DNA from: an uncultured Candidatus Saccharibacteria bacterium
Lineage (GTDB): Bacteria; Patescibacteriota; Minisyncoccia; Phycocordibacterales; UBA918
Direction: 5' to 3'
NCBI GenBank assembly: GCA_964402035.1
Contig: CAYOAM010000001.1
Span: 179,558-243,557, forward strand
DNA: 64,000 bases
A program made the translations under genes and the position numbers. Shown in pieces: positions 20,201 through 52,122 of the stretch (the stretch's first letter is position 1; each line of letters starts with the position of its first letter). Under the pieces are notes generated by a model. The model had not been told where the DNA came from and did no database searches. It was given only the letters and a program-made list of their open reading frames with translations.

Positions 20201-23200
20201 ATGGGGTGAAGTGACACCTACTACAACAAACTCACAGGTGGTGAGTACTTCTTCTGCTTCTATCGACCTTGAGAGTGGAAGTAGCCAACTCTTAGGTATC
20301 ACTGATGCCGCACAGTCAACACTCGATATCTTGGGAAGTATGACTATTGAGGCGTGGGTGCGCCCCGAGAGCCAACCGAGTGTTGGTGGTATTAGCGTTA
20401 TCGCCTCAAAGTGGAGTGCAAGTGCTGACCAATCCTATGCTCTGTATTATGAAAATGATGCAGGAACAAAAAAGCTTGTCTTTCGTATGGATGACACAAC
20501 AACGAACCCATCAAAGATATGCTCGCTCTCGACTACCTTGAGTGACGCAACATGGTATCACGTGGCTGTCGCATATGACGCAGCAAATGCAAGTAGCACA
20601 CTCTATGTAAACGGTAGCAGTATTGGATATTGTACAGGTCTCTATACGAGCATACTCAATTCTACGACAGATTTCCGAGTAGGGGCGTGGCAGAATACTG
20701 CAACACATTTCTTTGATGGGCTTATCGACGAACTACGTGTCTGGAGCGGAGTTCGCACACAAGCACAGATCCAAGCATCGAAAGACGCAGAGCTTGCGGG
20801 AAACGAAAGTGGCCTCCAGGCGTATTGGCGCTTGAATAACTCTTCGCTCGATACCACAACAAACGACAATGATCTTACCCTCTATGGTGGGCCAGTCTAC
20901 AGTACTTCAACACCACTTGCGTCTGTGTACACCACAGCAGCGTCACGCTTTACCTTCACTGACGCGGGGGTCGATAAACGCACAACACAGTACACCTATG
21001 CCTCAAATACTGCGGCATACGTCACACTTCTTCAGAAAGAGACTCTGCTCGATAGGGCTTCAAGTACGATACGTGAAAACAGATTCTACTACGACACTCA
21101 GGCACTCGGCACGGTGACTGACGGAAATATGACGAAAGCAGAACGCCTCGTATCTGGTTCGTCTACATACATTGATGAAGAGTGGACGTACAACAGCTAC
21201 GGGCTTGTATCACAGAGCAAAGACCCACGCGATAAAGCAACGACCTATGTCTATGACTCATACAACCTCTATCCGGCGACGACTACCAACCCTGTCTCTC
21301 ACGTACTCCTTAAATCCTACGACTATTCAAGTGGTAAGGTTGCGACGACAACCGATCCAAACAGTCGTGTGTTCGTTACTGTATACGATGCATTTGATCG
21401 ACCTATTGAGGAGCAAATTCCTGATCCTGTATCAGGTTCGCCTGTCACAAAAGCAACATATAGTTATATCGACACAGCAGGGAGTAACCGTATAGCGACA
21501 ACACAAAATCTCAATAATAGTACATCGACAGAATCGTACGACTACTTCGACGGCTTTGGACGCAAGATCCAGTCGCGTGTAGAAAGTGAGGCATCAAACA
21601 CTTTTGCAGTTCGTGACTTTTATTACAACAGCAACGGACTCTTGGATCGTGAGTCGCTCCCATATTTTAACAACGGTTCCAGTCGCACAAGTTCCACAAC
21701 CGATGCAGAGCTGTATAGCATCTACACGTACGACCCTCTCGGCCGTATTGCCACCACGACGACTGCCGTAGGTACAACAGCAACTGTCTTTGACGACTGG
21801 ACGGAACGTGTCGTTGACGCGCTTGGCAACCCGAAAGGATTTGCGTATGACGCGTACGGAAGGCTCGCAACTACAACTGAATACAATGCCTCGACGACCT
21901 ACGCCACAGCCTACCTCTGGGACATGACCGATAAGCTTGCAACTATTACCGATGCCTTGGGCAACATCCGTGCGATCACGTACGACAAACTGGGGAGGAG
22001 GCTCACACTTCAGGATCTCCATGCTTCGGCGGACACCACATTTGGTACTTCAAGTTTTGCATACGATGCATCTGGAAATCTAGGAACGACCACTGATCCC
22101 AAGGGGCAAACGGTGGTACGTACGTACGATGACGTAAACCGCATCCTCACCGAAAACTACACAGGACTTGCGGGGACTGAGATCTCGTATACGTACGACA
22201 CCTGCACTAACGGCAAAGGTAAGCTGTGCCAGGCTATACGTGCAAGTTCTGCAACGACGACCTATGCGTACACACCACCGGGACTTCTGGATATCGCTAC
22301 CACGACCGTCGGTACGTCAACGTACACCGCAAATTACGACTACGATAGACAAGGCAACCAAACGCAGCTCACGTACCCAGACGCTTCGGTGGCAAGTTAT
22401 ACGTACAACACGGGAGGGCAACTCGAAAAGGTGCAGTACAAAGAGAGTGGGGGATCCTACTCTGATGTCGTGAGCGATTTCAACTATGGTCCCCACGGCA
22501 TGATCACCTACGAGCTCTACGGCAATGGTGTCTCGACAACAAAAGTCTACGACGAAGATCAGCTCTATAGACTTAAAACCATTATTACGGTCACCGCTAC
22601 AGGTACCGTGGGGTACGGAGGCGGGGGTGATGAGCTTCGCGAACTAGAAACCTCACTCACTCTTGGTACAGACGGCACACTTCTCTTTGCGGTAGAGGAA
22701 GAAATAGGTGCCATACCTGAAGAGGAGGCGATACTCGAAGAAGAAACTGCTACTCAAGAAGAGGTCCCAGATATAACACCACCACTTGATACGGAAGATG
22801 TGGGGGAGACTCTCGAAGAAGAGAGTCCTATAGGTACAAGTACAGACGACGGTGCAGTGGCAGCAACCTCTTCCACGCCAGAAACTGCGTTTTCTTCAAC
22901 TACAGAAGAAGTCGCTTCAAGCACACCTGAGGACACGTTCCTTGAGAGTACGAGTACCATTGATATGCTTCTCGTCGGGACGACCACAGCAACCACGACT
23001 GACCTTGCAACTTCCACGACACCAATACTCACCGGTATTATGGCACTTATCGAAGGGAAGACATATGAAGAGATTGCCCGTATAAAATCAGAAGAGATTG
23101 CAAAGATTGATATGCGCGGTCTCTATACAAAAGGAGATCTTGATATCGAGATACTCGATGTGGCACAGATAGATGGTGGCATACAAGTCTTTGCGCGCGC

Positions 23201-25586
23201 ATGGGAGAGTGGAGTACCTCTTGGTTTTGGGACGGAAGGTACGGTCGAGATCGAACGGTTTAGAATCTTTAATCCGCCCATTCTTGTGCCGGACAAAGAG
23301 GGGCTCGTGGTACGCACTTCAGTAAATCTTGACGGGGAAACAAAAGTACACACGTACAGAGAAGATCCTTTGGGAGCAGTACGTACGGTGATACAAGATA
23401 GTATAGAACGTGTAGGAAAACGCGGGACTCTTGTTGAAGTTTCCACAGTTGGCAACACCACCTCTATCTTCTATCCTGCTTCTGGTGCCACTTCGCCAGT
23501 TGACGGTCTTGCACGTCACTACCAGGCAACAAGTGACTGGAATACTGCACGTGACGCCACCGACGGTACTGCGGCTTCAGCAACGACTGGGGACGATCTT
23601 GCTGCAGCCTCACGCAAAGACTCTTCTGACCTCTATGGCATCTATCGTGGCTTTTTCCTTTTTGACACGGCGCCGATTACATCCGGTAACGAGGTCACAG
23701 CAGCAACACTTTCTCTCTATACCAACGCTGTTTCAAATGCTGACAATGACGGTGACGACTTTATCTCCATTGTTTCTACATCCACTCCCGCTTCAGATGC
23801 AAACATCACCACGGCTGACTACGACCAATGTGGCGCAACTGAAGCACATGATACGAGTGAGCGCAAAGACCTTACCGGTATGAGTGTGAGCGTATACAAA
23901 GACTGGTCGATGAATGCTACAGGTCGTAGCAGTATCAATGTCACCGGTATCTCAAAGTTCTGTGCGCGTGAAGGTCACGATCTTCTCGATACACCATACG
24001 CAGGGGGTCCCAATACCTCAAACTACTTCAACATCCTCTGGGCAGATACTGCAGGCACAACCCAAGATCCAACATTGACTGTGACCCACACCCCACTCCC
24101 ATCTCCAACAGGAGGCAACACCATCCAATACCGCTCATACACCTATGACGCAGTGGGAAACATCACCCAGATTGTAGAAAGTGGAAACACACTCGCCCGC
24201 GCCACCACCACATACACATACGACCCCCTCTATCGCCTCGTGAGTGCTTCGACCACTCAGGCAAGTAGCACCCCATACTCCGAAACATACGCATACAACG
24301 CCATCGGTAACCTCACCTATAAGTCAAACGTAGGTACGTACTCATATGGAGGGAGTAGTGGCTCTTCATACGCTAACCCACACGCTCCCACAAGCATCAA
24401 TGGCGTCACCTACGCATATGACAAGAATGGCAACCTAGCCTCCACCACCGACTCCAAGACCTATACCTGGGACTATGCCAATAGGTTAAGTAGCACTGTC
24501 ATAGGCAGTCTCACCACCACATACCAGTACAACCACGAAGGTCAACGAGTATACAAAACCAATGCCTCAGGTACGATAGCCTCACCCTATACCTTCTACG
24601 AAACCGACTCAGGAACAACCACCAAGCACATCTATACCCCTAGTGGTGATCTTCTTAGTACCATCGACAAGAGGGGTAGCACCACCACACGCTCCTATGC
24701 CCACACAGATCACTTGGGATCAACGGTCGCTATCACAAGCAATACCGGAGCAGTGTCACAAGTACTTGAATACTATCCGTATGGAGGAACACGTATAGAC
24801 CAGAAGTATGGCGCTACGAACCAACGCAATAGATACATAGGACAAGACAGTGACATAGAGAACTCGCTTATCTACCTCAATGCACGGTATTATGATGGAC
24901 AGAGAGGGCAGTTCTTGAGTCAGGATCCGGTGTTTAATGAGGTCGGACTCACGAAAGACGGGAAAGCAGTGATGAGGAATCCTCAAGCGATGAACAGCTA
25001 CTCGTATGCACAGAATAATCCTGTGGTGTATAAAGATCCGAGTGGGAGGATAGCGTTTGTACCACTTGTTCTTGGAATTGTGATGGCTTATGGTTATGTA
25101 CAAACGGCTGTTGACGTGTATCACTTTACCAATGTTTTAAGATACCCAGAAGCGTTCACAACCTCTGAAATGAATGAAGCTGGAGTCAAAGTGATACACG
25201 ACGCAGCAGGAATAGGTGCAGGACGACTTCTGGGGCCGGATGTTGGCTCAGGGATTGACACATTTGGAGCGATATATGACACAGTTAACTACGGAGTGAA
25301 AAAAATTGATGATTTATTCAAAAAAGTAAAAAATCTTTCAGTAGACGGAGGTCAAAATATACACCAAACTACACCAGCAATAGGAAACATTCCAAAACCA
25401 CAAGATAATAAAACATATATTAGTGCACCACCATCTACTACTCAACCAATACCAACGGCACAAAACTCTTCTAACTACAATTCAGCTACGAGTTATCTAA
25501 ACTCAGCACAGCGAGCACTAAATCGAGGTGATTTAAAATCAGCCGAAAGATTTATTGGCAAAGCAAGGAGATCTTTAGGTAATTAA
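17295..25586 (+). CDS. rhs: Giant Rhs/YD-repeat polymorphic toxin (Tc-toxin BC-like): signal peptide, SpvB domain, FG-GAP/integrin-like repeats, LamG/ConA-like lectin domain, YD repeats, RHS core and variable C-terminal toxin domain
   Basis: SpvB-like block (GAFTYDYPLMVPPGRNGREPSLVLSYNSRGG..GYGWSINIPFIERV). Six DxNGDGxxD propeller repeats (DVDINGDGFPDII, ADVNGDALTDVL, ADINGDGLPDLV, VDVNGDGLTDVV, EDVNGDGLVDLS, MDVNADRLPDEV). LamG block (IEAWVRPESQ...LIDELRVWSGVRTQAQIQ). YD repeats (YTYDAVGNITQI and others). Core end HTDHLGSTVAITS..YYPYGGTR...NARYYDGQRGQFLSQDPVF, then a unique 215-aa C-terminal domain. Confidence 0.9.
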   Translation: MNGSRQWCVSIGQSFNSVYRKTVSILLAVFLLLEPLTPLFAAEEVPQTTDAPATTSAPVDTTPVITVPRGTEPPPETNTSQTEDGVEFSVDGKTPEIKPPPKVEQPSEDTKKLEEVEPETESLMGMGGATQGSDRGQVRLSSKINEQDGAFTYDYPLMVPPGRNGREPSLVLSYNSRGGGDDDIFGYGWSINIPFIERVNKVGSEQIFTQSVFYSSLGGELVQIGSTTQYRPKVETGEFLKYVFANDLWKITDKSGTVYTFGSTTSSREDNAASSTQIAKWMLDEVRDTNDNYVKYTYYKADNRAYPATIVYTGSGATDGPFSISFVRSTTTSNSPRYESGFAATTTYRISEINTAVSGSWVRKYALAYGVGDNSVRTLLSGITESARTEGSTASTTMPATTFTYENTMSQTWTASSWALPEPFTQNGIDMGTRDVDINGDGFPDIIRFYRDATGTTIKRVYLNNKVDGWTLQSSWDWTYFTVPFSEYYAVGDSNARNDNGVRFADVNGDALTDVLIGYDGNGSSDTQKIYINYGAGWSYDSSWVLPVYFTRYYSSRVWDNGVRIADINGDGLPDLVSAQWNASSTLSTVFLNTGSGWSTTTSWVMPRAFTGAYDGVHQGKDLGTQLVDVNGDGLTDVVHGLKSTIFGNSKNTYLNTGSGWATSTLWDLPDYLIWADEAVSDIGYRFEDVNGDGLVDLSINNTFGGSIPDDDIYINTGAGWTNSIGNFPPYQFVTSTGDTGARFMDVNADRLPDEVYGNTSSSTGPVSSEETYLNRREVGDLLINVTEPKGGTLAITYQSSHEYRSAGSSTNPSLPFPITTVATTTKDAGFGTTETQAYLYEGGDYWFDATLFRDRKFAGFSTMTKTGPTQKERIYFHQGNETNVTSGEYADDSTKIGFPYRSEVADLANRPYKVSTSEWVTSDLGSSASFVKETQTIDLAYDGDSDYKARAVTYVYDDTNGLLTTKTEWGEVTPTTTNSQVVSTSSASIDLESGSSQLLGITDAAQSTLDILGSMTIEAWVRPESQPSVGGISVIASKWSASADQSYALYYENDAGTKKLVFRMDDTTTNPSKICSLSTTLSDATWYHVAVAYDAANASSTLYVNGSSIGYCTGLYTSILNSTTDFRVGAWQNTATHFFDGLIDELRVWSGVRTQAQIQASKDAELAGNESGLQAYWRLNNSSLDTTTNDNDLTLYGGPVYSTSTPLASVYTTAASRFTFTDAGVDKRTTQYTYASNTAAYVTLLQKETLLDRASSTIRENRFYYDTQALGTVTDGNMTKAERLVSGSSTYIDEEWTYNSYGLVSQSKDPRDKATTYVYDSYNLYPATTTNPVSHVLLKSYDYSSGKVATTTDPNSRVFVTVYDAFDRPIEEQIPDPVSGSPVTKATYSYIDTAGSNRIATTQNLNNSTSTESYDYFDGFGRKIQSRVESEASNTFAVRDFYYNSNGLLDRESLPYFNNGSSRTSSTTDAELYSIYTYDPLGRIATTTTAVGTTATVFDDWTERVVDALGNPKGFAYDAYGRLATTTEYNASTTYATAYLWDMTDKLATITDALGNIRAITYDKLGRRLTLQDLHASADTTFGTSSFAYDASGNLGTTTDPKGQTVVRTYDDVNRILTENYTGLAGTEISYTYDTCTNGKGKLCQAIRASSATTTYAYTPPGLLDIATTTVGTSTYTANYDYDRQGNQTQLTYPDASVASYTYNTGGQLEKVQYKESGGSYSDVVSDFNYGPHGMITYELYGNGVSTTKVYDEDQLYRLKTIITVTATGTVGYGGGGDELRELETSLTLGTDGTLLFAVEEEIGAIPEEEAILEEETATQEEVPDITPPLDTEDVGETLEEESPIGTSTDDGAVAATSSTPETAFSSTTEEVASSTPEDTFLESTSTIDMLLVGTTTATTTDLATSTTPILTGIMALIEGKTYEEIARIKSEEIAKIDMRGLYTKGDLDIEILDVAQIDGGIQVFARAWESGVPLGFGTEGTVEIERFRIFNPPILVPDKEGLVVRTSVNLDGETKVHTYREDPLGAVRTVIQDSIERVGKRGTLVEVSTVGNTTSIFYPASGATSPVDGLARHYQATSDWNTARDATDGTAASATTGDDLAAASRKDSSDLYGIYRGFFLFDTAPITSGNEVTAATLSLYTNAVSNADNDGDDFISIVSTSTPASDANITTADYDQCGATEAHDTSERKDLTGMSVSVYKDWSMNATGRSSINVTGISKFCAREGHDLLDTPYAGGPNTSNYFNILWADTAGTTQDPTLTVTHTPLPSPTGGNTIQYRSYTYDAVGNITQIVESGNTLARATTTYTYDPLYRLVSASTTQASSTPYSETYAYNAIGNLTYKSNVGTYSYGGSSGSSYANPHAPTSINGVTYAYDKNGNLASTTDSKTYTWDYANRLSSTVIGSLTTTYQYNHEGQRVYKTNASGTIASPYTFYETDSGTTTKHIYTPSGDLLSTIDKRGSTTTRSYAHTDHLGSTVAITSNTGAVSQVLEYYPYGGTRIDQKYGATNQRNRYIGQDSDIENSLIYLNARYYDGQRGQFLSQDPVFNEVGLTKDGKAVMRNPQAMNSYSYAQNNPVVYKDPSGRIAFVPLVLGIVMAYGYVQTAVDVYHFTNVLRYPEAFTTSEMNEAGVKVIHDAAGIGAGRLLGPDVGSGIDTFGAIYDTVNYGVKKIDDLFKKVKNLSVDGGQNIHQTTPAIGNIPKPQDNKTYISAPPSTTQPIPTAQNSSNYNSATSYLNSAQRALNRGDLKSAERFIGKARRSLGN

Positions 25587-25591
25587 GTAGT

Positions 25592-25852
25592 ATGAAATTA
25601 CAAGATTTAATTATTAATAATTATGAAATACTCCTTCTCGTCGCAGGATTGTTACTCACATTTCTTGGAATTATGCCTATAATCTCAAGAAATTACTATG
25701 AAAACAATTTAAGATCAGATTGGAGTAGAAACCTCTGGCTATTTTCAGAGAAAGACAGATATATATATAATAGATATGTTAGACCACTTTATCCATTGTT
25801 GGCTGGTATTACTATGATTGGTGTAGCAATCTATAAGTTTTTATATCCTTAA
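25592..25852 (+). CDS. Candidate immunity protein for the Rhs C-terminal toxin (86 aa, 2 TM helices)
   Basis: Starts 6 nt after the rhs stop. AT-rich, two hydrophobic helices (LLLVAGLLLTFLGIMPII and LLAGITMIGVAIYKFLY). Confidence 0.45.
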   Translation: MKLQDLIINNYEILLLVAGLLLTFLGIMPIISRNYYENNLRSDWSRNLWLFSEKDRYIYNRYVRPLYPLLAGITMIGVAIYKFLYP

Positions 25853-25857
25853 TACGT

Positions 25858-27021
25858 GTGACCATCTCCTCCAAAACATACACCTGGGACTATGCCAACA
25901 GACTCAGTAGCACCGTCATAGGATCCTTAAGTACCTCATACCTCTATAACCACGAAGGTCAACGAGTATACAAAACCAATGCTTCAGGTACGATAGCTTC
26001 ACCGTATACCTTCTATGAGACAGACTCAAGTACCACCACCAAGCACATCTATACCCCCAGTGGTGATCTTCTTAGTACCATCGACAAGAGGGGTAGCACC
26101 ACCACACGCTCCTATGCCCACACAGATCACTTGGGATCAACGGTCGCTATCACAAGCAATACCGGAGCAGTGTCACAAGTACTTGAATACTATCCGTATG
26201 GAGGAACACGTATAGACCAGAAGTATGGCGCTACGAACCAACGCAATAGATACATAGGACAAGACAGTGACATAGAGAACTCGCTTATCTACCTCAATGC
26301 ACGGTATTATGATGGACAGAGAGGGCAGTTCCTTTCACAGGATCCGGTGTTTCTTGGGGATGCAGAAGCTCAGGACTTGAAATATCCTCAGAATCTAAAT
26401 AGTTATTCATACTGGACGAACAATCCTATTATTAATAAAGATCCAAGCGGAAAAGCGACATACGTTGATGTTAACGGGAAAAGAATTATAGGTTCAGACA
26501 CAAATGACCCGAATACCTACTATGAGCAAGATGACATCAATATGCTCAACACAAATGCCAACCAAATGGAAAACAACAAGCTCAATGCTGTGGAGTTCTA
26601 TAATAAAGTTAACTATGGTGGTGAATGGGACTACAAAGAAGGAGGGAGGGAGTATTATTTCTTTGAAGGGGAACTGGTCGATAAGGAAACCTATGGGAAT
26701 CGTCATTATGGCTATACGGGCAGCGCAGGAGCTTTCCCGGGCGTTGTATTGAAGGCGGGTGCAGGGGCCGCTTCAGTACGACATAATAAGGGGTTTGTTA
26801 AAAATTCTTCAATGTATCTTGATGAGCAAAAAGATACCAGAAACATTCAGATGGGTATTGATGCATATCAAAGTAAAAATAGCAAAAACACAGTCAGCCT
26901 TTCTACAAAACTAAAGAATGCTAATACATCGCTCAATTATGCCCTTGAACAAGCCAAAAAAGGGAACACATATGCTGCCACTCGAGCTATAAAGAGAGCT
27001 TTCAATCAATTGAACAATTGA
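25858..27021 (+). CDS. Orphan rhs-CT cassette 2: duplicated Rhs core 3' end (about 160 aa) fused to a distinct C-terminal toxin domain; GTG start only
   Basis: Nt 26041-26333 are more than 99% identical to 24623-24915 of the main rhs gene, with divergence starting exactly after QDPVF. No ATG start is present. Confidence 0.7.
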   Translation: MTISSKTYTWDYANRLSSTVIGSLSTSYLYNHEGQRVYKTNASGTIASPYTFYETDSSTTTKHIYTPSGDLLSTIDKRGSTTTRSYAHTDHLGSTVAITSNTGAVSQVLEYYPYGGTRIDQKYGATNQRNRYIGQDSDIENSLIYLNARYYDGQRGQFLSQDPVFLGDAEAQDLKYPQNLNSYSYWTNNPIINKDPSGKATYVDVNGKRIIGSDTNDPNTYYEQDDINMLNTNANQMENNKLNAVEFYNKVNYGGEWDYKEGGREYYFFEGELVDKETYGNRHYGYTGSAGAFPGVVLKAGAGAASVRHNKGFVKNSSMYLDEQKDTRNIQMGIDAYQSKNSKNTVSLSTKLKNANTSLNYALEQAKKGNTYAATRAIKRAFNQLNN

Positions 27022-29405: not shown

Positions 29406-29768
29406 CTAGTTAATTTTAGTTTTAATTTGAAAAGTAATTTTGTCCATCTCTACATTTGATTGAGAATCGTGACTAGCCCTTAATCTTATTGGTACTGAAC
29501 CAGTGAGGATCACCTTGCCGTGGTCATAGCTGATGCTTTCTACAAAATCTATAAGGAACTTCCTTTTTGCTTTAAGGTCGATACTCCTTTCAAATCTTGC
29601 TCGTGTAGTCTCACAAAATATCCTTAAGTTCGCATCGATTATATCCTCATCGTGCAGGGTGGGTATTTGTTTGAGAAGTTCCTTTAAATCAAGGAAATGG
29701 ATCAGAAATGGGGACAGGGACAATACTTTAAACAAAGGAAATGGGGACAGGGACAATACTTTAAACAA
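29406..29768 (-). CDS. Hypothetical ORF whose N-terminal 30 codons are encoded by the REP repeats; probably a disrupted gene remnant
   Basis: The N-terminus MFKVLSLSPFPLFKVLSLSPF is the translation of the tandem REP units. No internal ATG except near the C-terminus. Confidence 0.2.
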   Translation of the reverse strand: MFKVLSLSPFPLFKVLSLSPFLIHFLDLKELLKQIPTLHDEDIIDANLRIFCETTRARFERSIDLKAKRKFLIDFVESISYDHGKVILTGSVPIRLRASHDSQSNVEMDKITFQIKTKIN

Positions 29769-29770
29769 AA
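29691..29770. repeat. Left REP-like array: 2.3 tandem copies of ggaaatggggacagggacaatactttaaacaaa (33-nt period)
   Basis: Seen directly. Inverted relative to the array at 30480-30554. Confidence 0.8.
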
Positions 29771-29788
29771 GTATTGCATAATATTGTC

Positions 29789-30457
29789 ATGCCTCGCCAA
29801 GCACGTGTTGCGGTGAAAGATGTGGTGTACCATGTCATCAATCGTTCCAATGGTCGAGCGAGGATATTCGAGAAAGACAGTGACTATCAGCATTTTGAGT
29901 CACCGCTCACCGAAGCCCGGGAACTAACAGATATGCGTATCCTTGCATACTGTATTATGCCCAACCATTGGCATCTTATACTCCATCCACGTTCAGACAC
30001 CAACCTTGCTGAATTTATGAGTTGGCTCACCACGACTCATGTCCGCCAGTATCGCACTCGCACGCAAAGTATTGGCTATGGTCACCTCTATCAAGATCGA
30101 TACAAATCATTTCCCGTTGAGACCAATGACTATTGCGCAACACTGATCCGCTACATTGAACAGAACCCATTGCGCGCTCGACTCATTCAAAGAGCCGAAG
30201 ACTGGCAATGGTCAAGTCTCTGGAGACGAGAGCAGGGAAGCGATGCACAGAAGAGGCTGCTTGCGGAGTTACCCACTGACCTTCCTGCAAACTATCTGCA
30301 GTCTGTGAATGAGATACTTAAACCTAAAATAATAGAAAATATTCGTTACTCGGTGAACAAAGGAAAACCATATGGCTCAGAAAGGTGGGTGAGTACCATG
30401 GTGGGTGACTTTGCATTAAGGTATACGCTTCGTGGTCCAGGTCGTCCGAAGAAATAG
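29789..30457 (+). CDS. REP-associated tyrosine transposase (RAYT, IS200/Y1 HUH family)
   Basis: HUH motif HWHLILH and catalytic Tyr region (YIEQNPLRARL..EDWQWSS). Aligns by eye with the E. coli RAYT YafM pattern. Maximal ORF from TTG 29774. Confidence 0.85.
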   Translation: MPRQARVAVKDVVYHVINRSNGRARIFEKDSDYQHFESPLTEARELTDMRILAYCIMPNHWHLILHPRSDTNLAEFMSWLTTTHVRQYRTRTQSIGYGHLYQDRYKSFPVETNDYCATLIRYIEQNPLRARLIQRAEDWQWSSLWRREQGSDAQKRLLAELPTDLPANYLQSVNEILKPKIIENIRYSVNKGKPYGSERWVSTMVGDFALRYTLRGPGRPKK

Positions 30458-31010
30458 AAAATATTACACAATGAAAAGTGGAAAAATATTGTCCCTGTCC
30501 CCAATTTCCTGGAAAAATATTGTCCCTGTCCCCAATTTCCTCCCCAATTTCCTGAATCCAGTAGGTTCACTGATTGATTCCGTTACGGCTGCAAAAGATA
30601 AACTGGTGGAATTCCAAAACAGCAGTGACCCAGAGCGAGATGCCATGCTTGCTGATGGAATTATCACTTTTGCAGAGATGGTCGTGTTGCGAAATCGTGG
30701 GAATGTGGGGGATGACGTTATTAGAGAGACTCTTAGCGGAAGTGGGGACATTCGAAGAGTACACAGATTGTCATCAACTGATGCACTCACAACAGGTGAA
30801 CAATTCCTCGGTCCTGGTTATAAACAACTAGGTAAGCCAAATTCAGGTGTGTTTAGAAGCGCTGATGGACTGAGGCAATTTAAGATTGATGGGGGATCAC
30901 TTATCCATCCACAAGGAGCACACGTCAGTTTTGAAGCGTTTAATGTAAGTCAGTCTACTAACCCGTATGCAGAACCGTATGTAAACAATCACGTCTTTTT
31001 AACAAATTAA
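30432..31010 (+). CDS. Putative orphan toxin C-terminal domain (5' part overlaps the RAYT 3' end and REP array; the real module probably starts near 30556)
   Basis: Location in the cassette array with a small gene immediately 3'. No recognisable Rhs core upstream, consistent with displacement by the REPIN-RAYT insertion. Domain family not recognised. Confidence 0.3.
   Translation: MVQVVRRNRKYYTMKSGKILSLSPISWKNIVPVPNFLPNFLNPVGSLIDSVTAAKDKLVEFQNSSDPERDAMLADGIITFAEMVVLRNRGNVGDDVIRETLSGSGDIRRVHRLSSTDALTTGEQFLGPGYKQLGKPNSGVFRSADGLRQFKIDGGSLIHPQGAHVSFEAFNVSQSTNPYAEPYVNNHVFLTN
30480..30554. repeat. Right REP-like array: 2.4 tandem copies of ggaaaaatattgtccctgtccccaatttcc (reverse complement of the left units)
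   Basis: Seen directly. Together with 29691-29770 it forms inverted REP doublets around the RAYT gene (REPIN-like). Confidence 0.8.
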
Positions 31011-43647: not shown

Positions 43648-43959
43648 ATGAAAAAAAGGGCGTATAGTCAAAAGGAGGTTGAGAAGCGGCTCAAAGATGT
43701 GCCGGAATGGAAGACGAATACAAAGTGTACGTCACTTGCGCGTTCGTTTAAGACTTCGAATTTTGTTGCAGGGCTTGCGCTCGTTGCAAAGATTACGGTG
43801 CATGCTGAAGTTATGGATCATCACCCTACGGTAGAACTATCATACGGTATGGTAAAAATAACTCTGTCGACGCATGATGTCGATGGGCTCACTAAAAAAG
43901 ACTTTGAGCTTGCAGAGCGTATTGATCGCTTGCAGCATACGAAGAGCCGTACCGCATGA
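43648..43959 (+). CDS. Pterin-4-alpha-carbinolamine dehydratase (PCD/DCoH)
   Basis: FVAGLALVAKITVHAEVMDHHPTVELSYGMVKITLSTHDVDGLTKKDFELAERID follows the PCD pattern. Confidence 0.75.
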   Translation: MKKRAYSQKEVEKRLKDVPEWKTNTKCTSLARSFKTSNFVAGLALVAKITVHAEVMDHHPTVELSYGMVKITLSTHDVDGLTKKDFELAERIDRLQHTKSRTA

Positions 43960-44978
43960 ACAAAAAAGCGCAACAATTGTATACCATTGGGGCGCTGGCC
44001 ATTGCCCTCATACTCTGGATCATGTATGACATTGATCTCTTCATATTAATCCTGATGACGCTTGGACTTTTAGGGCTAATTCCAAAATTAAAAAATTTTA
44101 AAAATAATTCTTCCGCAGATATGGACACAACAACCACCATGGAATCAATTAAAAGTGGAACACGAAAAACAGTACTGTACGGATTGGGGATATTAGTGGT
44201 GGTCATTTTTGTTATGCGTATGGTTGTGGTCATTGGGGCGGGGGAGATTGGTGTACAAGTCTTTTGGGGAAAAGTAGCACCAGAACCACTTTACTCTGGT
44301 ATTCACATCATTAACCCACTTGCGCATGTCATCACGTTTGACGCACGTACACGTCAGTACTATATGGGTATAGCAGCAGACAATGCGAGCCAAAATGATG
44401 TCGATGACCCCATCCGTGTGTTGACGGCAGAAGGTCTCTCTATCGATTTAGATATTTCCACACTGTATCGTGTTCAACCAGAGCGCATAACTGAGATCTA
44501 TAAGAATGTAGGAGTCGGCTATGAAGAACTGATTATTCGCCCCGAGATCCGCAGTATCATCCGCGACACCATCGCGCACTACAGCGCAAAAGATATTTAC
44601 TCAGAAAAACGCCAGGAGATCGTCACGACAATCACGGACAGCCTCCATAAGAAACTCGAGGCACGCGGTATCTTGCTTGAAGATGTCTTGCTCCGCAATG
44701 TGACCTTGCCGCCAGATCTTGTCCTTGCTATTCAGGAAAAACTTCGTACTGAGCAAGAGTCTCAAAAATATGACTTTGTCTTGGAAAAGGAGGTAAAGGA
44801 AGCAGAGCGAAAGAGGATTGAGGCTGAAGGTCAACGTGCGTACCAGCGGATCATCTCAGAAAGTCTCTCAAAGGAGTTTCTGTACTATCAGTACATAAAC
44901 CAACTCAAGGATCGCCAAGGTACGATCTATGTCCCTACAAACCCAGCGACAGGACTGCCACAGTTTAATGGGATTTAG
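43956..44978 (+). CDS. SPFH/band-7 (prohibitin-like) membrane protein
   Basis: Two N-terminal TM helices, SPFH core and a coiled-coil EAERKRIEAEGQRAYQRII. Confidence 0.75.
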   Translation: MNKKAQQLYTIGALAIALILWIMYDIDLFILILMTLGLLGLIPKLKNFKNNSSADMDTTTTMESIKSGTRKTVLYGLGILVVVIFVMRMVVVIGAGEIGVQVFWGKVAPEPLYSGIHIINPLAHVITFDARTRQYYMGIAADNASQNDVDDPIRVLTAEGLSIDLDISTLYRVQPERITEIYKNVGVGYEELIIRPEIRSIIRDTIAHYSAKDIYSEKRQEIVTTITDSLHKKLEARGILLEDVLLRNVTLPPDLVLAIQEKLRTEQESQKYDFVLEKEVKEAERKRIEAEGQRAYQRIISESLSKEFLYYQYINQLKDRQGTIYVPTNPATGLPQFNGI

Positions 44979-44998
44979 TCAGAATTAGAGTGGACGCG

Positions 44999-45027
44999 TT
45001 GACTTTAGGGCTTGAAATACGTATTAT
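44999..45027 (+). promoter_or_regulatory. Near-consensus sigma70 promoter TTGACT-N17-TATTAT upstream of tRNA-Ala
   Basis: Seen directly. Confidence 0.5.
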
Positions 45028-45103
45028 AGTCAAGCCCAAACGTCAATATCCCGGGCCATGAATAGTGTAGAAAAATAGATTTTTCCACGTATTCTCGCTT
45101 TCG

Positions 45104-45176
45104 GGCCCGTAGCTCAGTTGGCTAGAGCGCCTGTTTTGCACTCAGGAGGTCGCAGGTTCAATTCCTGTCGGGTCCA
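45104..45176 (+). tRNA. tRNA-Ala (anticodon UGC), CCA not encoded
   Basis: Cloverleaf by hand: acceptor GGGCCCG/CGGGTCC with a G3:U70 wobble (the Ala identity element), D-arm GCTC-AGTTGGCTA-GAGC, anticodon loop TTTGCAC, T-arm GCAGG-TTCAATT-CCTGT. Confidence 0.85.
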
Positions 45177-45222
45177 CAAAAGACAAAAGATCTGCCCTTC
45201 GGCAGGTCTTTTGCTTTTGTGG
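45174..45222 (+). terminator. Palindromic terminator module copy A (ccacaaaagacaaaagatctgccc-ttc-ggcaggtcttttgcttttgtgg) directly after tRNA-Ala
   Basis: Roughly 22-bp imperfect stem with U-tracts. Confidence 0.6.
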
Positions 45223-45429
45223 AAAGCGCAGGTATAGTTTTGTTTTGCGAAGCAAAGGCAAAAATACCGAGCTGGGATCGCGAAATTTTTCCGTCAGGAA
45301 AAATATTTGTGATCACAAAAGAAATACCGGCCATGTGCCGGTTTTTATGTGTCTGGTTGGGTGACAACGGAATTGAAAAGGTTGCCAGCTATTTTAAAAA
45401 ATAGCGACAACCTCTACCGAACATGTAAT

Positions 45430-45496
45430 GTTCAATTCCTGTCGGGTCCACAAAAGACAAAAGATCTGCCCTGCGGCAGGTCTTTTGCTTTTGTGG
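45430..45496 (+). repeat. Duplicate of the tRNA-Ala 3' end (22 nt, gttcaattcctgtcgggtccac) plus palindromic module copy B
   Basis: Identical to 45155-45222 except for 2 nt in the hairpin loop. Confidence 0.75.
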
Positions 45497-45589
45497 AAGC
45501 CGCAGACATATCGCTTGCGATGTCGAGGCAGGGTCGTGAGCACTTAGTATTTTCTGAATACTTGGAAGAAAATTCTTAGTGACTCCTGA

Positions 45590-45632
45590 CCACACGAAGA
45601 TCTGCCCTGCGGCAGGTCTTTTGCTTTTGTGG
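45590..45632 (+). repeat. Palindromic module copy C (ccacacgaagatctgccctgcggcaggtcttttgcttttgtgg)
   Basis: Copies B and C also share downstream blocks gaagccgcag...gggtcgtgagcayttagta, giving a tandem module of roughly 160 nt. Confidence 0.7.
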
Positions 45633-45861
45633 AAGCCGCAGCGTTGTCGCCTTGCGACCGCGGAGAAACAGTGGATAGCCACTGTTTCTCGGGTCGTGAG
45701 CATTTAGTAATGCGTCCACTCCATAAGCAATCTAGTGAGTATTTGCTAACATAGGAGATATGCCACTCAGCGATATGCCGAGAGGAGTGATAATTGCCAC
45801 CTACAAGCGAGACGGAGAAATCAAGATAGGAACCGTTGAAAATTAAAAGTATCATAGAAGT

Positions 45862-46284
45862 ATGCAGAATAATAAACAAATATATATTAATTTGATTGTA
45901 AAAGATCTAGAAAAGTCCACAAAGTTTTATGAATCTTTGGGTTTTATTAAAAATCCGCAATTTTCCAACTATGATGCCTCTGGTCTATCTTGGTCGGAGA
46001 ATATTATGGTCATGCTTTTGACGGAAGATTTTGCGAGAAATTTTACGGATGGAAAGCACATTGCTGATAGTAAAAAAACCGTCGCAGCTATCTTTGCGAT
46101 TTCTTTTGAGAGTAAAGCTGCAGTAGATGACTTTGCTACAAAAGCAAGAGCCGCAGGAGCAAAAGTGTATCGAAACAAATACAATGATCAGTATGATTTT
46201 ATGTATGGAGTCGAGGTAGAAGATTTGGATGGATATATTTGGGAGCCAACGTATATGGATATGTCCAAATTTCCACAAAATTAA
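45862..46284 (+). CDS. VOC/glyoxalase-bleomycin-resistance family protein
   Basis: 140 aa with the paired beta-alpha-beta-beta-beta pattern (YINLIVKDLEKSTKFYESLGF...YGVEVEDLDGYIWE). Confidence 0.65.
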   Translation: MQNNKQIYINLIVKDLEKSTKFYESLGFIKNPQFSNYDASGLSWSENIMVMLLTEDFARNFTDGKHIADSKKTVAAIFAISFESKAAVDDFATKARAAGAKVYRNKYNDQYDFMYGVEVEDLDGYIWEPTYMDMSKFPQN

Positions 46285-46762: not shown

Positions 46763-46936
46763 GCTAGAAACTATCCAAAACACAACCCACCTCTCGGGCT
46801 TGTAAGGAGAATGACGACGGTGTTTTGGCGTATGGACATATATCTATTGTGTATCATATCTCTGTTTTTTTGCAAGGGATAGCATTTTGTGGAAAGCGTG
46901 GGTTTTGCACAAAAATGGTTGTATACTAGTATCATC

Positions 46937-47701
46937 ATGTCAACAATCATCTGGCTTGTCCTTGGGGTTATTGTATTTATTATTCTCGTTGGGTTACGTA
47001 TCGTTGACCAATTTGAACGTGGAGTCGTCCTCACCCTTGGAAAATATTCAGGCATACGTGAGCCAGGACTCACGTGGATATTCATTGGTATCCAGCACAT
47101 GACAAAGGTGGACTTGCGCATCACGACTACTGACATACCACAGCAGGAAGTTATTACCAAAGACAATGTGCCGGTTGGGATCAATGCGGTCGTGTATTTT
47201 CAAGTACAATCTGCAGAGAAAGCGATTCTTAATATCAAAGACTATACTCTAGCGGTCTCACAATACGCACAAGCAGCGCTTCGTGATGTGATTGGAGGCA
47301 TTGAGCTTGATCCGCTCCTCTCTGAACGTGAGCAGATTTCAGAAGAAATCCAAAAGATAGTCGTTCAGGCGACTGAATCATGGGGTATTTCAGTTACTGA
47401 CATCAAAATCCAAGACATTGAGCTTCCTGCGGATATGAAACGAGTCATGGCAAAACAGGCAGAGTCAGAGCGTGAACGTCGTGCGATCGTTATCCGTGCG
47501 CAAGGAGAATTTGAAGCGTCTGAGCGCCTTGCCCAAGCGGCAGGTATCCTCACGAGCACACCCGGAGGTATTTCGATGCGCACACTCCAGACGATTGAGA
47601 AAATCAATCCAGACCCTTCCAAAACCGTTATTTTTGCGTTGCCTGTGGAATTTATGGAGGGGATCAAGAGTCTCTCACAGTTTATGAGTGAAAAGAAATA
47701 G
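46937..47701 (+). CDS. SPFH/stomatin-like protein (maximal ORF from GTG 46889)
   Basis: N-terminal TM helix, then the band-7 core (GINAVVYFQV...AQAALRDVIGGIELDPLLSEREQISEEIQK). Confidence 0.7.
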   Translation: MSTIIWLVLGVIVFIILVGLRIVDQFERGVVLTLGKYSGIREPGLTWIFIGIQHMTKVDLRITTTDIPQQEVITKDNVPVGINAVVYFQVQSAEKAILNIKDYTLAVSQYAQAALRDVIGGIELDPLLSEREQISEEIQKIVVQATESWGISVTDIKIQDIELPADMKRVMAKQAESERERRAIVIRAQGEFEASERLAQAAGILTSTPGGISMRTLQTIEKINPDPSKTVIFALPVEFMEGIKSLSQFMSEKK

Positions 47702-50964: not shown

Positions 50965-51921
50965 TCAGCGTGCGGCTGCAGTGACGCCGCGTACCTGCTG
51001 ATCGACGTTCATGAACGGCATGACGTTCGACAGCATACTGGTAGGCAATTTGCCATCCCAACGTTCTGCCTTGCGCAGTTCGATGAGAGACAGATTTGAA
51101 GCCAAGGCTTCGGCTTGGGCACGAATAGCAAGTGCTTGCGCCTCACCTTGTATGCGGATTGCCTCAGCCTCTGCTCTGGCTGCAAGCAGGCGTGCATTGG
51201 CTGCACCGCGTGCTGATTCTTCAGCTGCATTGGCAGCACCAGCAGCATCGATTCGAGCACGGTCGGCTGTGATGACAGCACGACGACGTTCGTTGTCAGC
51301 CTGCTCTACGCCAGCTTTTGCTTTCGAAGCTTCGTTGTTTGCTTCACGAAACGTTTTGTTGAAGTCGACGTTCGTGATTTGGAAATCGACGATTTCCAGC
51401 TGAAACAGTGCGTTCGCATTCTCCTTGAAGACCTTGAATATGCGATCACGCACTTCTCCACGCTTTGAAGCGATTTCGCTCACATTGACGCGTCCGACTT
51501 CCGCCTTGAACCGATCGATTGCGAGAGATATCAGGCGCTGTTCGTAGTCAGGAACACGCTTGAACACATTCTCCACACTGTCGTTCGGAATGCGGTAGTT
51601 GACGGTGAAGAGCGCGTCGAGCTCTTGGTTGTCGACGGTATAGGTATTCACCTTATCAACTTGAAATGCTCGAATGTTTACAGGAAAGTCCACCACACCT
51701 TGGACGAATGGGATCTTGAAGTGGAGCCCTGGTCCTTTGACTGCGACAAATTGCCCGAACTGGGTCAATACCGCCCGCTCCGTCTCACGGACCGTGTAAT
51801 ATGATCCGAAGAAGGCCATGAGAAACGCCACGAACAGAACGCCCATGATAAGCCAGCGTGGCCTCACCGGTCTCATCATAAGACTTGTACGCCCGCTAAC
51901 CCCTTGTCCGTCTATCGTCAT
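50965..51921 (-). CDS. SPFH/band-7 protein, HflC/HflK-like (maximal ORF extends to 51996)
   Basis: RBS GAGG before ATG 51921. TM helix. SPFH core and an Ala-rich coiled coil (AANARLLAARAEAEAIRIQGEAQALAIRAQAEALA). Confidence 0.7.
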   Translation of the reverse strand: MTIDGQGVSGRTSLMMRPVRPRWLIMGVLFVAFLMAFFGSYYTVRETERAVLTQFGQFVAVKGPGLHFKIPFVQGVVDFPVNIRAFQVDKVNTYTVDNQELDALFTVNYRIPNDSVENVFKRVPDYEQRLISLAIDRFKAEVGRVNVSEIASKRGEVRDRIFKVFKENANALFQLEIVDFQITNVDFNKTFREANNEASKAKAGVEQADNERRRAVITADRARIDAAGAANAAEESARGAANARLLAARAEAEAIRIQGEAQALAIRAQAEALASNLSLIELRKAERWDGKLPTSMLSNVMPFMNVDQQVRGVTAAAR

Positions 51922-52122
51922 TTCAGCCTCGCATATATTAAGAACACCACGAAACCCACGTGGCATGGGGTACGTACTCACGGTGTATTCTAACATTAAG
52001 AATATATTGTGTCAAGCTTTCTGTGAAAGTTCATAAGCTAGCGAACTTTTACGTTACCCTTAAACAAGAATTTATTATTTGTTATAGTGAACAAAGATCC
52101 ACTCAACCTCAGGGGTGTCCCT

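What the first reader, a model, noticed from the sequence alone, without database searches (positions are those of the whole stretch)
45104..45720. tRNA-Ala followed by a duplicated tRNA 3' end and three copies of a 45-nt palindromic terminator module
The last 22 nt of tRNA-Ala plus the downstream palindrome are repeated about 275 nt later (45430-45496). A third palindrome copy with shared downstream blocks (gaagccgcag ... gggtcgtgagcayttagta) follows at 45590-45720. A duplicated tRNA 3' end is the usual attL/attR scar of a tRNA-targeting integrative element, but only about 250 bp lies between the copies. That could mean a collapsed island, a miniature mobile element, or a tandem array of small-RNA-like units, each with its own intrinsic terminator.
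Basis: seen in the sequence. Interest (0 to 1): 0.55.

Follow-up and report, generated by a model that had tools for sequence, protein, structure and literature searches.

The report
Stacked miniature hairpin modules behind tRNA-Ala
Downstream of the only tRNA-Ala gene in this small-genome (Patescibacteria-type) bacterium sit four gene-less units of about 125-155 bases each (tRNA-tail copy, terminator hairpin, conserved folded body); related modules follow tRNA-Ala, tRNA-Pro and one protein gene in other such bacteria, so this looks like a stack of tiny site-specific insertions, not a collapsed island or a chance repeat.

Summary
The last 21-22 nt of tRNA-Ala(UGC) plus a long terminator hairpin recur at 45430, and the hairpin recurs again at 45590. 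None of these pieces occurs elsewhere in the 64 kb, and independent assemblies show the same layout. A fourth, diverged copy (45311-45349) was missed, so the array has four units (U1-U4).

Each unit is [tRNA 3' piece][terminator hairpin][structured non-coding body]. The bodies belong to two families, which I call X (about 80 nt, three-way junction) and Y (long hairpin). Homologues lie downstream of tRNA-Ala and tRNA-Pro, and at the 5' end of the tag gene, in other Patescibacteria metagenome contigs, always between an intact target gene and a partial copy of its end.

The X core shows strong covariation (90/90 cells paired; 7/10 pairs change on both sides). Module content differs between orthologous loci. 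Some arrays carry cargo or a foreign tRNA piece.

No Rfam family, phage, plasmid or adjacent recombinase matches.

Best reading (confidence 0.5): serial site-specific insertion of miniature non-autonomous modules at the tRNA 3' end. This resembles att arrays and cis-mobilizable elements but is far smaller and structure-conserved. The enzyme and mechanism are unknown.

The parts
44999..45046 (+). Promoter-like site (TTGACT-17-TATTAT, 44999-45027) embedded in an inverted repeat (TTGAC..GGGCTTGA / TCAAGCCC..GTCAA), upstream of tRNA-Ala
   Evidence: 10/12 match to consensus; inverted repeat read from the sequence. Function not tested.
45103..45177 (+). Intact tRNA-Ala(UGC) with G3:U70 and no encoded CCA. 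Its last 21 nt (45156-45176) form the '3' piece' that is repeated downstream.
   Evidence: (Rfam tRNA 67.7 bits)
45173..45223 (+). T1: 51-nt palindromic terminator hairpin of unit U1 (loop CTTCGG; CTGCGG in assembly ERZ3430527), followed by a T-rich run
   Evidence: (I2)
45224..45316 (+). Y1 body of U1. It contains a first hairpin (45231-45268) and a Y-type long hairpin (45274-45316), homologous to the L017 Y body with compensatory changes.
45311..45349 (+). Start of unit U2: decayed tRNA tail (GATCACAAAAG) plus a diverged, bidirectional terminator hairpin (45326-45342, then TTTTTAT)
45359..45432 (+). X module of U2. P1 5' strand 45359-45377 is partly antisense to the tRNA 3' piece. P2 hairpin 45380-45412; junction TCTACCG 45413-45419; P3 hairpin 45420-45432 with a GTA loop.
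   Evidence: Fold (z = -2.5); covariance-model hit 45375-45440 at 66.9 bits, the only confident hit in the window (a second, weak minus-strand hit at 45369-45417, E 0.18, overlaps the same module); covariation
45430..45450 (+). Second, perfect copy of the tRNA 3' piece (start of unit U3). One assembly has T>G at 45437.
45447..45497 (+). T3: second copy of the 51-nt terminator hairpin (loop CTGCGG)
45498..45591 (+). Y3 body of U3: GGAAGCCGCAG, small hairpin 45506-45523, CGAGGC, and long hairpin 45532-45591 that begins with the GGGTCGTGAGCACTTAGTA block
45583..45595 (+). Decayed tRNA 3' piece (CTCCTGA--CCACAC) that starts unit U4
   Evidence: homology with L037/L039 ...GTGACCAATTCCTGTCGGGTCCA
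45590..45632 (+). T4: third copy of the terminator hairpin, left arm shortened by 5 nt. 45597-45641 is 45/45 identical to 45461-45505.
45633..45709 (+). Y4 body of U4, apparently 5' part only: GGAAGCCGCAG, hairpin 45643-45661, extra perfect hairpin 45663-45690, and GGGTCGTGAGCATTTAGTA at 45691-45709
   Evidence: (I8, D2)

Best explanation
The locus is an accretion array of four miniature, gene-less insertion modules at the 3' end of the single tRNA-Ala(UGC) gene.

Proposed mechanism:
- Each module is [copy of the tRNA's last ~21 nt][its own terminator hairpin][a structured non-coding body of type Y or X].
- A module recombines site-specifically with the tRNA's 3' end. This regenerates an intact tRNA that now uses the module's 3' piece and terminator, and it pushes the previous 3' piece and everything behind it downstream.
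- Repetition gives tRNA-U1-U2-U3-U4. Displaced 3' pieces that are no longer under selection decay (U2, U4).
- The hairpins stay nearly identical, through gene conversion or selection.
- The modules encode no protein, so a recombinase must act in trans. It could be host-encoded or carried by an autonomous relative elsewhere. The array may also now be fossil.

Shown: the anatomy; the homology of the X and Y bodies with modules at tRNA-Ala, tRNA-Pro and tag in other genomes; their conserved folds; the differences in module content between related loci.

Inferred: the recombination step, the order of insertion, the circular intermediate, and the identity of the enzyme.
For: 1. Direct repeats of the tRNA 3' end with an intact tRNA at the proximal end. 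This is the standard signature of integration into a tRNA gene.

2. The design recurs in independent metagenome contigs.
- A second copy of the 3' piece lies 105-260 nt downstream of tRNA-Ala in L022, L025, L033/L040, L037, L038 and L039, and downstream of tRNA-Pro(GGG) in L020 (two copies) and L024.
- The interval is built from the same X and Y modules as in the window (the covariance model R1 finds them at 64-78 bits).

3. The module adapts to its target.
- The tRNA-Pro version of X carries GGAATCGAA/TTCGATTCC where the tRNA-Ala version has GGAATTGAA/TTCAATTCC.
- An X variant lies between a duplicated 70-nt 5' fragment of tag and the intact tag gene in L020 and L022.

4. Modularity and turnover.
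- The [terminator + X] unit that is first in L033 is second in L025, behind another unit (85% over 133 nt).
- L038 and L040 share 79%-identical upstream DNA over 1.6 kb but have different modules downstream.
- L017 and L037 share tRNA + terminator + Y at 96% over 198 nt, while their flanks are unrelated.

5. Horizontal input at such arrays.
- The L024 tRNA-Pro array contains a 3' half whose 16-nt tail is identical to the L027 tRNA-Pro tail listed, not to the resident gene.
- L039 has an approximately 600-bp cargo (a 129-aa ORF plus terminator) between 3' pieces.
- L029 and L018 have toxin-antitoxin genes next to the arrays.

6. X is site-restricted. There is one copy in the 64-kb window, and every hit with E <= 0.003 in 231 kb lies beside tRNA-Ala, tRNA-Pro or tag.

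7. Divergence within the window array is uneven. The hairpin plus the start of Y is 45/45 identical between U3 and U4, but the bodies match at 36 of 65 positions and the 3' piece at 17/31.

8. All 3 substitutions between assemblies of this population fall inside the array (0 elsewhere in 13 kb), and both in ERZ3430527 make U1 look like U3.

9. A published analogue exists. Tandem islands at Dehalococcoides ssrA are bounded by 20-bp repeats of the ssrA 3' end, have a conserved motif just upstream of each repeat, and some lack integration genes (PMC3146451).
Against: - No integrase, serine recombinase or transposase lies next to any array. The window has none apart from an unrelated RAYT-like gene 15 kb away.
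- No empty site, circular junction or presence/absence polymorphism was seen within the window's own population. All assemblies have the same four units.
- No phage or plasmid carries the modules.
- Repeat length varies from 15 to 70 nt between instances. That is unusual for a single recombinase with a fixed crossover site.
- The conserved hairpins with free covariation are not what ordinary double-stranded att arm sites look like.
- In the window, the 3' piece plus hairpin of U1 and U3 are nearly identical over 66 nt. Local duplication could also produce that.
Confidence: 0.5

Rival explanations
1. Purely local evolution. The region downstream of the tRNA, including part of the tRNA, was duplicated in tandem by unequal crossing-over or hairpin-induced replication slippage. 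The copies then diverged and are partly homogenised by gene conversion. On this view X and Y are old, vertically inherited spacer structures of this bacterial clade, and nothing is or was mobile.
For: - All four units are co-oriented and adjacent.
- The hairpins are nearly identical while the bodies are diverged, and the strain SNPs look like conversion between copies.
- There is no recombinase and no donor replicon.
- The window shares the UvrC-UGDH-Ddl-PCD neighbourhood with L020, L027 and L029. These are therefore related genomes in which a shared ancestral spacer is plausible.
Against: - The same X core occurs at three unrelated targets (tRNA-Ala, tRNA-Pro, tag 5' end) and in both orientations.
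- A foreign tRNA-Pro 3' half sits in the L024 array.
- Unit order differs between L025 and L033. L017 and L037 share the module but not the flanks.
- Slippage does not explain why each duplication leaves an intact gene plus a conserved structured module exactly at the joint.
Confidence: 0.2
2. The bodies are functional small RNAs or cis-acting RNA structures. Each would be transcribed and would end at the next terminator hairpin, for example as processing or stability elements, or as decoys that carry a tRNA-like 3' end. The array would then be a small-RNA gene cluster.
For: - Covariation in the X core is strong: 90/90 cells paired, score 0.80 versus 0.17 in shuffles and at most 0.25 in slid controls.
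- The Y closing stem shows compensatory changes.
- Non-Watson-Crick pairs are G:T on the element strand: all five in the ten X-core pairs, and seven G:T against two plain mismatches in five of the six Y closing stems (the L028 stem did not align in this register). This is as expected for a fold of that single strand.
- Each body is followed by a 3' piece plus an intrinsic-terminator-like hairpin.
Against: - No promoter-like site precedes any body. The only internal match is a weak 9/12 site inside X.
- Every body lies behind a terminator, so read-through from the tRNA promoter should be low.
- X-type modules occur inverted relative to the tRNA (L020, L028).
- No Rfam family matches.
- An RNA function does not explain the duplicated target-gene ends, including a protein gene's 5' end.
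- A single-stranded DNA fold explains the G:T bias equally well.
Confidence: 0.15
3. The hairpin modules are REP/BIME-like elements handled as single-stranded DNA by the RAYT-like HUH (Y1) transposase encoded at 29774-30457.
For: - A Y1_Tnp gene is present. Its best NCBIfam match is 'REP-associated tyrosine transposase'.
- That enzyme family acts on single-stranded hairpins and mobilises short non-coding palindromes (established knowledge).
- The folds appear to be single-strand specific.
- GC skew indicates the + strand is the lagging-strand template here (inference).
Against: - The 24-33-nt repeats flanking the RAYT-like gene are unrelated to X, Y or T and occur nowhere else.
- X and T are not dispersed.
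- The NCBIfam score of 70.1 is below the curated cut-off of 80.
- HUH Y1 transposition does not duplicate 15-70 nt of target.
Confidence: 0.07

Closest known systems
Tandem genomic islands and 'cis-mobilizable elements' at tRNA/tmRNA genes (e.g. Dehalococcoides ssrA islands, PMC3146451; the CIME/accretion concept from streptococcal ICEs)
   Same: - Insertion at the 3' end or T-loop region of a single-copy tRNA-like gene that stays intact.
- Arrays of direct repeats of the gene's 3' end.
- A conserved motif just upstream of each repeat.
- Units without their own recombinase.
- Newest unit presumably next to the gene.
   Different: - Units here are 125-155 nt with no genes, versus kilobases with cargo.
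- Each unit brings its own terminator hairpin and a structure-conserved body.
- No cognate integrase was identified anywhere.
- The same module family also targets the 5' end of a protein gene.
Integron attC sites / CTX-phage attP (recombination sites that function as folded single-stranded hairpins)
   Same: - Structure is conserved while sequence is free to vary.
- The fold is strand-specific (G:T but essentially no A:C).
- The module's two ends pair with each other, so that a duplex resembling the target is presented.
- Arrays of sites occur in one orientation.
   Different: - There is no IntI or Xer link.
- The GTTRRRY core is not met (GTTCAAT).
- X is a three-way junction rather than a single bulged hairpin.
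- There are no cassettes (ORFs) between sites in the window.
- The target is a gene end, not attI or dif.
REP/BIME/REPIN elements and MITEs
   Same: Short, non-coding, strongly folding palindromic DNA in intergenic space behind terminators. X has 9-nt terminal inverted complementarity.
   Different: - Not dispersed: one X per 64 kb, and all copies sit at specific gene ends.
- No fixed-length target duplication.
- No relation to the repeats flanking the RAYT-like gene in the window.
tRNA gene fragments left by integrated elements in archaea and bacteria (PMC9897764)
   Same: Partial, non-canonical tRNA copies next to a canonical tRNA gene, as footprints of integration.
   Different: Here the DNA between the canonical gene and the fragment is only a small conserved structured module, repeated four times.

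Membership tests
att-site array of tRNA-targeting integrative / cis-mobilizable elements | Direct repeat of the tRNA 3' end bounding the inserted DNA, with an intact tRNA at one end | tested here: met
   21-nt perfect repeat (81 nt at 94%); tRNA scores 67.7 bits
att-site array of tRNA-targeting integrative / cis-mobilizable elements | A site-specific recombinase, in the element or elsewhere in the genome, that recognises the att sites | tested here: not met
   No integrase or resolvase among the window ORFs scanned or beside the arrays in other loci. The rest of the genome could not be searched.
att-site array of tRNA-targeting integrative / cis-mobilizable elements | Insert present or absent, or different, at the orthologous site in related genomes | tested here: met
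   L038 vs L040 (79% identical upstream over 1.6 kb, different modules); L025 vs L033 unit order. Within the window's own population no variant was seen.
att-site array of tRNA-targeting integrative / cis-mobilizable elements | Excision to a circular form / re-integration | not testable with these tools
   Needs raw reads or experiments
REP/BIME (RAYT-mobilised palindromes) | Many dispersed extragenic copies of the same short palindrome | tested here: not met
   hairpin, block and X occur only at this locus in 64 kb
REP/BIME (RAYT-mobilised palindromes) | RAYT gene flanked by the same palindromes | tested here: not met
   the RAYT-like gene at 29774-30457 is flanked by unrelated repeats (GGGGACAGGGACAATA...)
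Integron attC / CALIN | R''/R' boxes with GTTRRRY core, and an integron integrase or cassette ORFs | tested here: not met
   The junction reads GTTCAAT, or ATGGAAAA in other instances. No IntI-like gene was found and there are no ORFs between sites in the window.
MITE | Terminal inverted repeats plus fixed-length target-site duplication, multi-copy | tested here: not met
   X ends are complementary, but the repeats are 15-70 nt and variable and copies are not dispersed.
Any Rfam RNA family (tRNA-like, tmRNA, ribozymes, sRNAs) | Covariance-model match | tested here: not met
   (E <= 1): only the tRNAs themselves match; ARAGORN finds no tmRNA
Intrinsic (Rho-independent) terminator | G+C-rich stem-loop followed by a T-run on the transcribed strand | tested here: met
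   45184-45213, 45458-45487, 45596-45621 and 45326-45342 (pattern match only; termination not measured)

The most novel reading that the evidence does not exclude
X and Y would be a previously undescribed class of very small (about 80-200 nt) non-coding mobile modules of Patescibacteria. They would insert at the ends of essential or conserved genes (tRNA-Ala, tRNA-Pro, tag) and bring a replacement gene end. Their insertion site would be defined by a folded single strand that carries a segment complementary to the target. Instances: the 19-nt GGACCCGACAGGAATTGAA in L017/L037/L039; GGAATYGAA in X; CTGGTACAC opposite GTG|TACCAG in tag. This would be an attC/CTX-like or guide-like mode of site recognition that uses an enzyme supplied in trans.
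Probability: 0.25. Interest if true: 0.8.

Novelty: new variant of a known kind. Interest (0 to 1): 0.58.

Why it matters
Patescibacteria have tiny genomes with very little non-coding DNA and few recognised mobile elements. Yet here 600 bp behind a single-copy tRNA is filled with stacked, structure-conserved, gene-less modules that recur at specific gene ends across lineages.

If these are mobile, they would be among the smallest site-specific insertion units known. They would also mark a recombination system in an uncultured phylum that has not been described, possibly one that reads folded single strands or target-complementary segments.

Practical consequences:
- The modules break short-read assemblies (the Logan contigs end inside them).
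- They generate spurious ORF calls.
- They create tRNA fragments that confuse annotation.

The covariance model for X built here is a direct handle for a phylum-wide survey.

Tried and rejected
- **Synteny in species-representative genomes.** A scan with the flanking SPFH protein found six relatives (best 69% identity), none with a tRNA beside the gene. The big protein database has nothing closer than 68% apart from the same population.
- **Phage or plasmid donors.** The only phage hits are complete tRNA genes in tRNA arrays (L016, L041). The hairpin, the X junction and the whole array give no hit in viral contigs, phages or plasmids. The scan was uninformative, because it only matched the complementary strand of tRNA genes.
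- **Metagenome scan for the hairpin.** Nothing found.
- **Known RNA families.** None match.
- **tmRNA / aminoacylatable minihelix idea.** Rejected. ARAGORN finds no tmRNA, the L037-type closing stem has A:U at the 3:70 position, and covariation favours the long Y hairpin over an acceptor-like pairing.
- **Protein-coding reading of X.** Spurious ORFs give similar peptides such as GIEKV..FDQRKK..PCNGKFLSGP. Rejected because P2 length varies by non-multiples of 3, the arms covary as a hairpin, and Pfam finds nothing.
- **My early guess that GGAAGCCGCAG is a decayed antisense copy of the tRNA end.** Withdrawn. It aligns with the sequence that follows the antisense piece in L037/L039, so the window's Y modules lack that piece.
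- **Link to the RAYT-like gene.** No shared sequence.
- **The 13-nt inverted repeat 44988-45000 / 45709-45721 that brackets the whole cassette.** About 0.5 such pairs are expected by chance in 1.3 kb (my estimate), so I treat it as chance.
- **dif/Xer-like or IS91-like (GTTC) readings of the X-3' piece junction.** Not sustained, because the P3 arms and the junction differ freely between instances.
- **Literature searches.** Searches for a described equivalent found only general analogues.
Full report
**1. Observation**

The window has a single tRNA gene, tRNA-Ala(UGC), at 45103-45177.
- Its last 21-22 nt plus a long palindrome are repeated 274 nt downstream: 45156-45236 versus 45430-45510, 94% over 81 nt.
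- The palindrome alone recurs at 45590-45632.
- A 19-nt block, GGGTCGTGAGCAYTTAGTA, follows the second and third copies.
- None of these pieces occurs elsewhere in the 64 kb, and shuffles give essentially zero expected matches.
- The palindromes fit the intrinsic-terminator pattern.
- Two independent ENA assemblies of the same population span the whole region and reproduce the arrangement. A third covers it from 45275 onward. Short-k-mer Logan contigs simply stop inside the repeats.

**2. Anatomy**

Aligning the unit starts shows a fourth, diverged copy of 'tRNA tail + terminator' at 45311-45349, with the terminator stem at 45326-45342. The array is therefore tRNA-U1-U2-U3-U4. Each unit is [tRNA 3' piece][terminator hairpin][structured body].

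| Unit | Span | 3' piece | Hairpin | Body |
|---|---|---|---|---|
| U1 | 45156-45316 | the tRNA's own end | T1 | Y-type |
| U2 | 45311-45432 | decayed tail | diverged terminator | X module |
| U3 | 45430-45591 | perfect copy | T3 | Y-type |
| U4 | 45583-45709 | decayed (CTCCTGA--CCACAC) | T4 | 5' part of a Y-type body |

Divergence is very uneven. The hairpin plus the first 11 nt of Y are 45/45 identical between U3 and U4, but their bodies match at only 36 of 65 positions and the 3' piece at 17/31.

**3. Context**

- The neighbours are UvrC, a UDP-glucose dehydrogenase-like gene, Ddl, pterin-4a-carbinolamine dehydratase and an SPFH protein upstream. A VOC/glyoxalase gene, a second SPFH gene, an OMP-decarboxylase-like gene and YceG lie downstream.
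- The nearest homologues of the SPFH protein are from Patescibacteria MAGs (Moranii-, Magasanik-, Parcu- and Saccharibacteria labels). Nothing is closer than 68-69% identity.
- No integrase, resolvase or DDE transposase was found in the window.
- One RAYT-like HUH (Y1) transposase gene lies 15 kb away. It has its own unrelated flanking repeats, which occur nowhere else.

**4. Strain level**

Across 13 kb the ERZ3430527 assembly differs from the window at only two positions, 45199 and 45237. Both lie in U1 and both change U1 to the state of U3. The ERZ3430528 contig differs at one position in 1.9 kb, 45437, in the 3' piece of U3. The array is thus the only variable spot. This is consistent with gene conversion between copies, though consensus mixing between repeats during assembly cannot be excluded. 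No copy-number variant was seen.

**5. Comparative evidence**

A metagenome scan with the 3' portion of this tRNA returned 24 loci.

*Recurrence of the design.*
- In L022, L025, L033/L040, L037, L038 and L039 an intact tRNA-Ala(UGC) is followed within 105-260 nt by a second copy of its 3' end. L039 has a third copy at 880 nt.
- tRNA-Pro(GGG) in L020 and L024 shows the same design with its own 3' end.

*Module X*:
- a 5' strand GGAAT(T/C)GAA that pairs with the T-loop/T-stem part of the following 3' piece;
- a long hairpin P2 with a conserved base (GGTTG...CAACC) and a freely varying distal part;
- a junction RWACHG;
- a 5-bp hairpin P3 with a GTA loop, running directly into the 3' piece.

*Module Y*: it follows the terminator, contains one or two small hairpins and CGAGRC, then a long hairpin starting GGG(G)TCG whose 3' strand leads into ...GTGACCAATTCCTGTCGGGTCCA. 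The window's 'GGGTCGTGAGCAYTTAGTA' block is the start of that hairpin.

*Window-to-locus homology.*
- The window's U2 X is homologous to X in L039, L025, L024, L020 and L033.
- Y1 matches the L017 form.
- Y3 and Y4 match the L028/L037/L039 form.

*Structure is under selection.*
- Nine X cores from three target types fold identically (z = -2.8 to -5.5).
- On the ten homologous basal pairs, 90/90 cells are paired and 7 pairs change on both sides. The covariation score is 0.80, versus 0.17 +/- 0.05 in shuffles (0/500 reach it) and at most 0.25 when partners are slid.
- The Y closing stem shows G:C<->A:U and G:C<->C:G exchanges.
- Non-Watson-Crick pairs are G:T on the element's own strand: all five in the ten X-core pairs, and seven G:T against two plain mismatches in five of the six Y closing stems (the L028 stem did not align in this register). 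This indicates a fold of that single strand, as RNA or as single-stranded DNA.

**6. Signs of mobility in the family**

- **Several targets.** X occurs at three kinds of target. In L020 and L022 a variant with an extra hairpin lies between a duplicated ~70-nt 5' fragment of tag (identical copies in L020, diverged in L022) and the intact tag gene. Its 3' end, CTGGTACAC, is the reverse complement of the tag sequence across the joint.
- **Both orientations.** X occurs in both orientations between tRNA 3' pieces (L020, L028).
- **Units shuffle.** L025 unit 2 matches L033 unit 1. L038 and L040 have homologous upstream DNA but different modules. L017 and L037 share tRNA + terminator + Y at 96% with unrelated flanks.
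- **Foreign piece.** The L024 tRNA-Pro array contains a 3' half whose 16-nt tail is identical to the L027 tRNA-Pro tail listed, not to the resident gene.
- **Cargo.** A 129-aa ORF in L039, Gp49/HTH and ParE toxin-antitoxin pairs in L029 and L018, and VOC genes in L022 and in the window.
- **Site restriction.** The covariance model finds one X in the window, and every hit with E <= 0.003 elsewhere is beside tRNA-Ala, tRNA-Pro or tag.

**7. What it is not**

- No Rfam family matches.
- No phage or plasmid matches.
- It is not coding.
- It is not a dispersed REP or MITE.
- The 103-aa minus-strand 'gene' called over U4 in public annotation has no family match and is most likely spurious.

**8. Mechanism**

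The best-supported reading (0.5) is serial site-specific insertion of tiny non-autonomous modules at the tRNA's 3' end. Each module brings a replacement 3' piece and its own terminator and displaces the previous one. This is the logic of tRNA-integrating elements and of accretion arrays such as the Dehalococcoides ssrA islands (PMC3146451), shrunk to 125-155 nt.

- Shown: the anatomy, the homology, the covariation and the turnover.
- Inferred: the crossover, the circular form and the enzyme.
- Main weaknesses: no recombinase was found, and no polymorphism was seen in this population.

Rivals:
- local duplication plus gene conversion of an inherited structured spacer (0.2);
- small-RNA units (0.15), disfavoured by the lack of promoters, the terminators upstream of each body, and the inverted copies;
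- handling by the RAYT-like enzyme (0.07), for which no sequence link exists.

The conserved single-strand folds, together with the target-complementary segments, leave room for a more unusual mechanism in which the insertion site is a folded single strand or carries a guide-like segment (0.25).

**9. Verdict**

'Collapsed island' is not supported. The locus is a new variant of a known kind, and the module families X and Y appear to be undescribed. Interest is moderate to high, mainly because of what the comparative data reveal beyond the window.

Noticed in passing
window 29703-30540: A RAYT-like HUH/Y1 transposase gene (29774-30457, 227 aa; Pfam Y1_Tnp 1.6e-19; NCBIfam REP-associated tyrosine transposase 70.1 bits, below the cut-off of 80). 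It is flanked by two tandem copies of a 24-33-nt repeat (GGAAATGGGGACAGGGACAATACTTTAAACAAA) upstream and two inverted copies downstream. It sits in a low-GC stretch (0.37-0.40). The repeats occur nowhere else in the window or the loci.
   Followed up: partly
window 17295-27021: A giant 2763-aa ORF (17295-25586) is followed by a 387-aa ORF (25858-27021) that has an Ntox44 toxin domain. RHS-repeat and SpvB domains are also present somewhere among the window's ORFs. This suggests a polymorphic-toxin locus, but I did not check which ORF carries the RHS/SpvB domains. It lies next to the low-GC region and the RAYT-like gene.
   Followed up: no
L020 (minus strand, about 7440-7290) and L022 (minus strand, about 880-745): An X-type module sits between a duplicated ~70-nt 5' fragment (including the ATG) of the DNA-3-methyladenine glycosylase I (tag) gene and the intact gene. 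The copies are identical in L020 and diverged in L022. The module's 3' end is complementary to the tag sequence across the joint.
   Followed up: partly
L038, L022, L029/L034 (downstream of tRNA-Ala): A second, nearly full-length tRNA-Ala copy carries a conserved 17-22-nt hairpin (ACAGTCTCCCAGACTGT) inserted in the D-stem. In L022 it also carries an X module in the T-loop, and in L029 one in the variable region. Decayed versions of the same hairpin are in L020, L027 and L028.
   Followed up: partly
L024 (minus strand, downstream of tRNA-Pro 4423-4352): A tandem array of tRNA-Pro 3' halves that start at the anticodon stem. One of them has a 16-nt tail identical to the L027 tRNA-Pro tail, not to the resident gene.
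   Followed up: partly
L018 1-2445: An AT-rich contig has three copies of a tRNA-Ala 3' half. Two are in a 79-nt tandem repeat, and the third lies 2.3 kb away beyond a 538-aa secreted-protein gene. An antitoxin/ParE pair follows. No intact tRNA is on the contig.
   Followed up: no
window 44999-45046: The promoter-like site of tRNA-Ala (TTGACT-17-TATTAT) lies inside a 48-nt inverted repeat (TTGACTTTAGGGCTTGA...TCAAGCCCAAACGTCAA).
   Followed up: no
window 44988-45000 and 45709-45721: A 13-nt inverted repeat (GAGTGGACGCGTT / AATGCGTCCACTC, 1 mismatch) brackets the whole tRNA + array cassette. It is about as likely as not by chance in 1.3 kb. Separately, the tRNA's orientation relative to the Ddl-PCD operon is opposite in L020, L027 and L029.
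   Followed up: partly
window 45544-45879 (minus strand): Public gene calls place a 103-aa 'protein' over unit U4 and the spacer. It has no Pfam match and overlaps the repeats, so it is probably a spurious ORF. Spurious ORFs across X modules in other loci give misleadingly similar peptides.
   Followed up: partly
window 43956-44978, 46889-47701, 50965-51996: Three SPFH/Band-7 paralogues lie within 8 kb around the tRNA locus.
   Followed up: no
window 45199, 45237, 45437: These are the only substitutions between the window and independent assemblies of the same population over 13 kb, and all lie inside the array. The two in ERZ3430527 convert U1 to the U3 state.
   Followed up: yes
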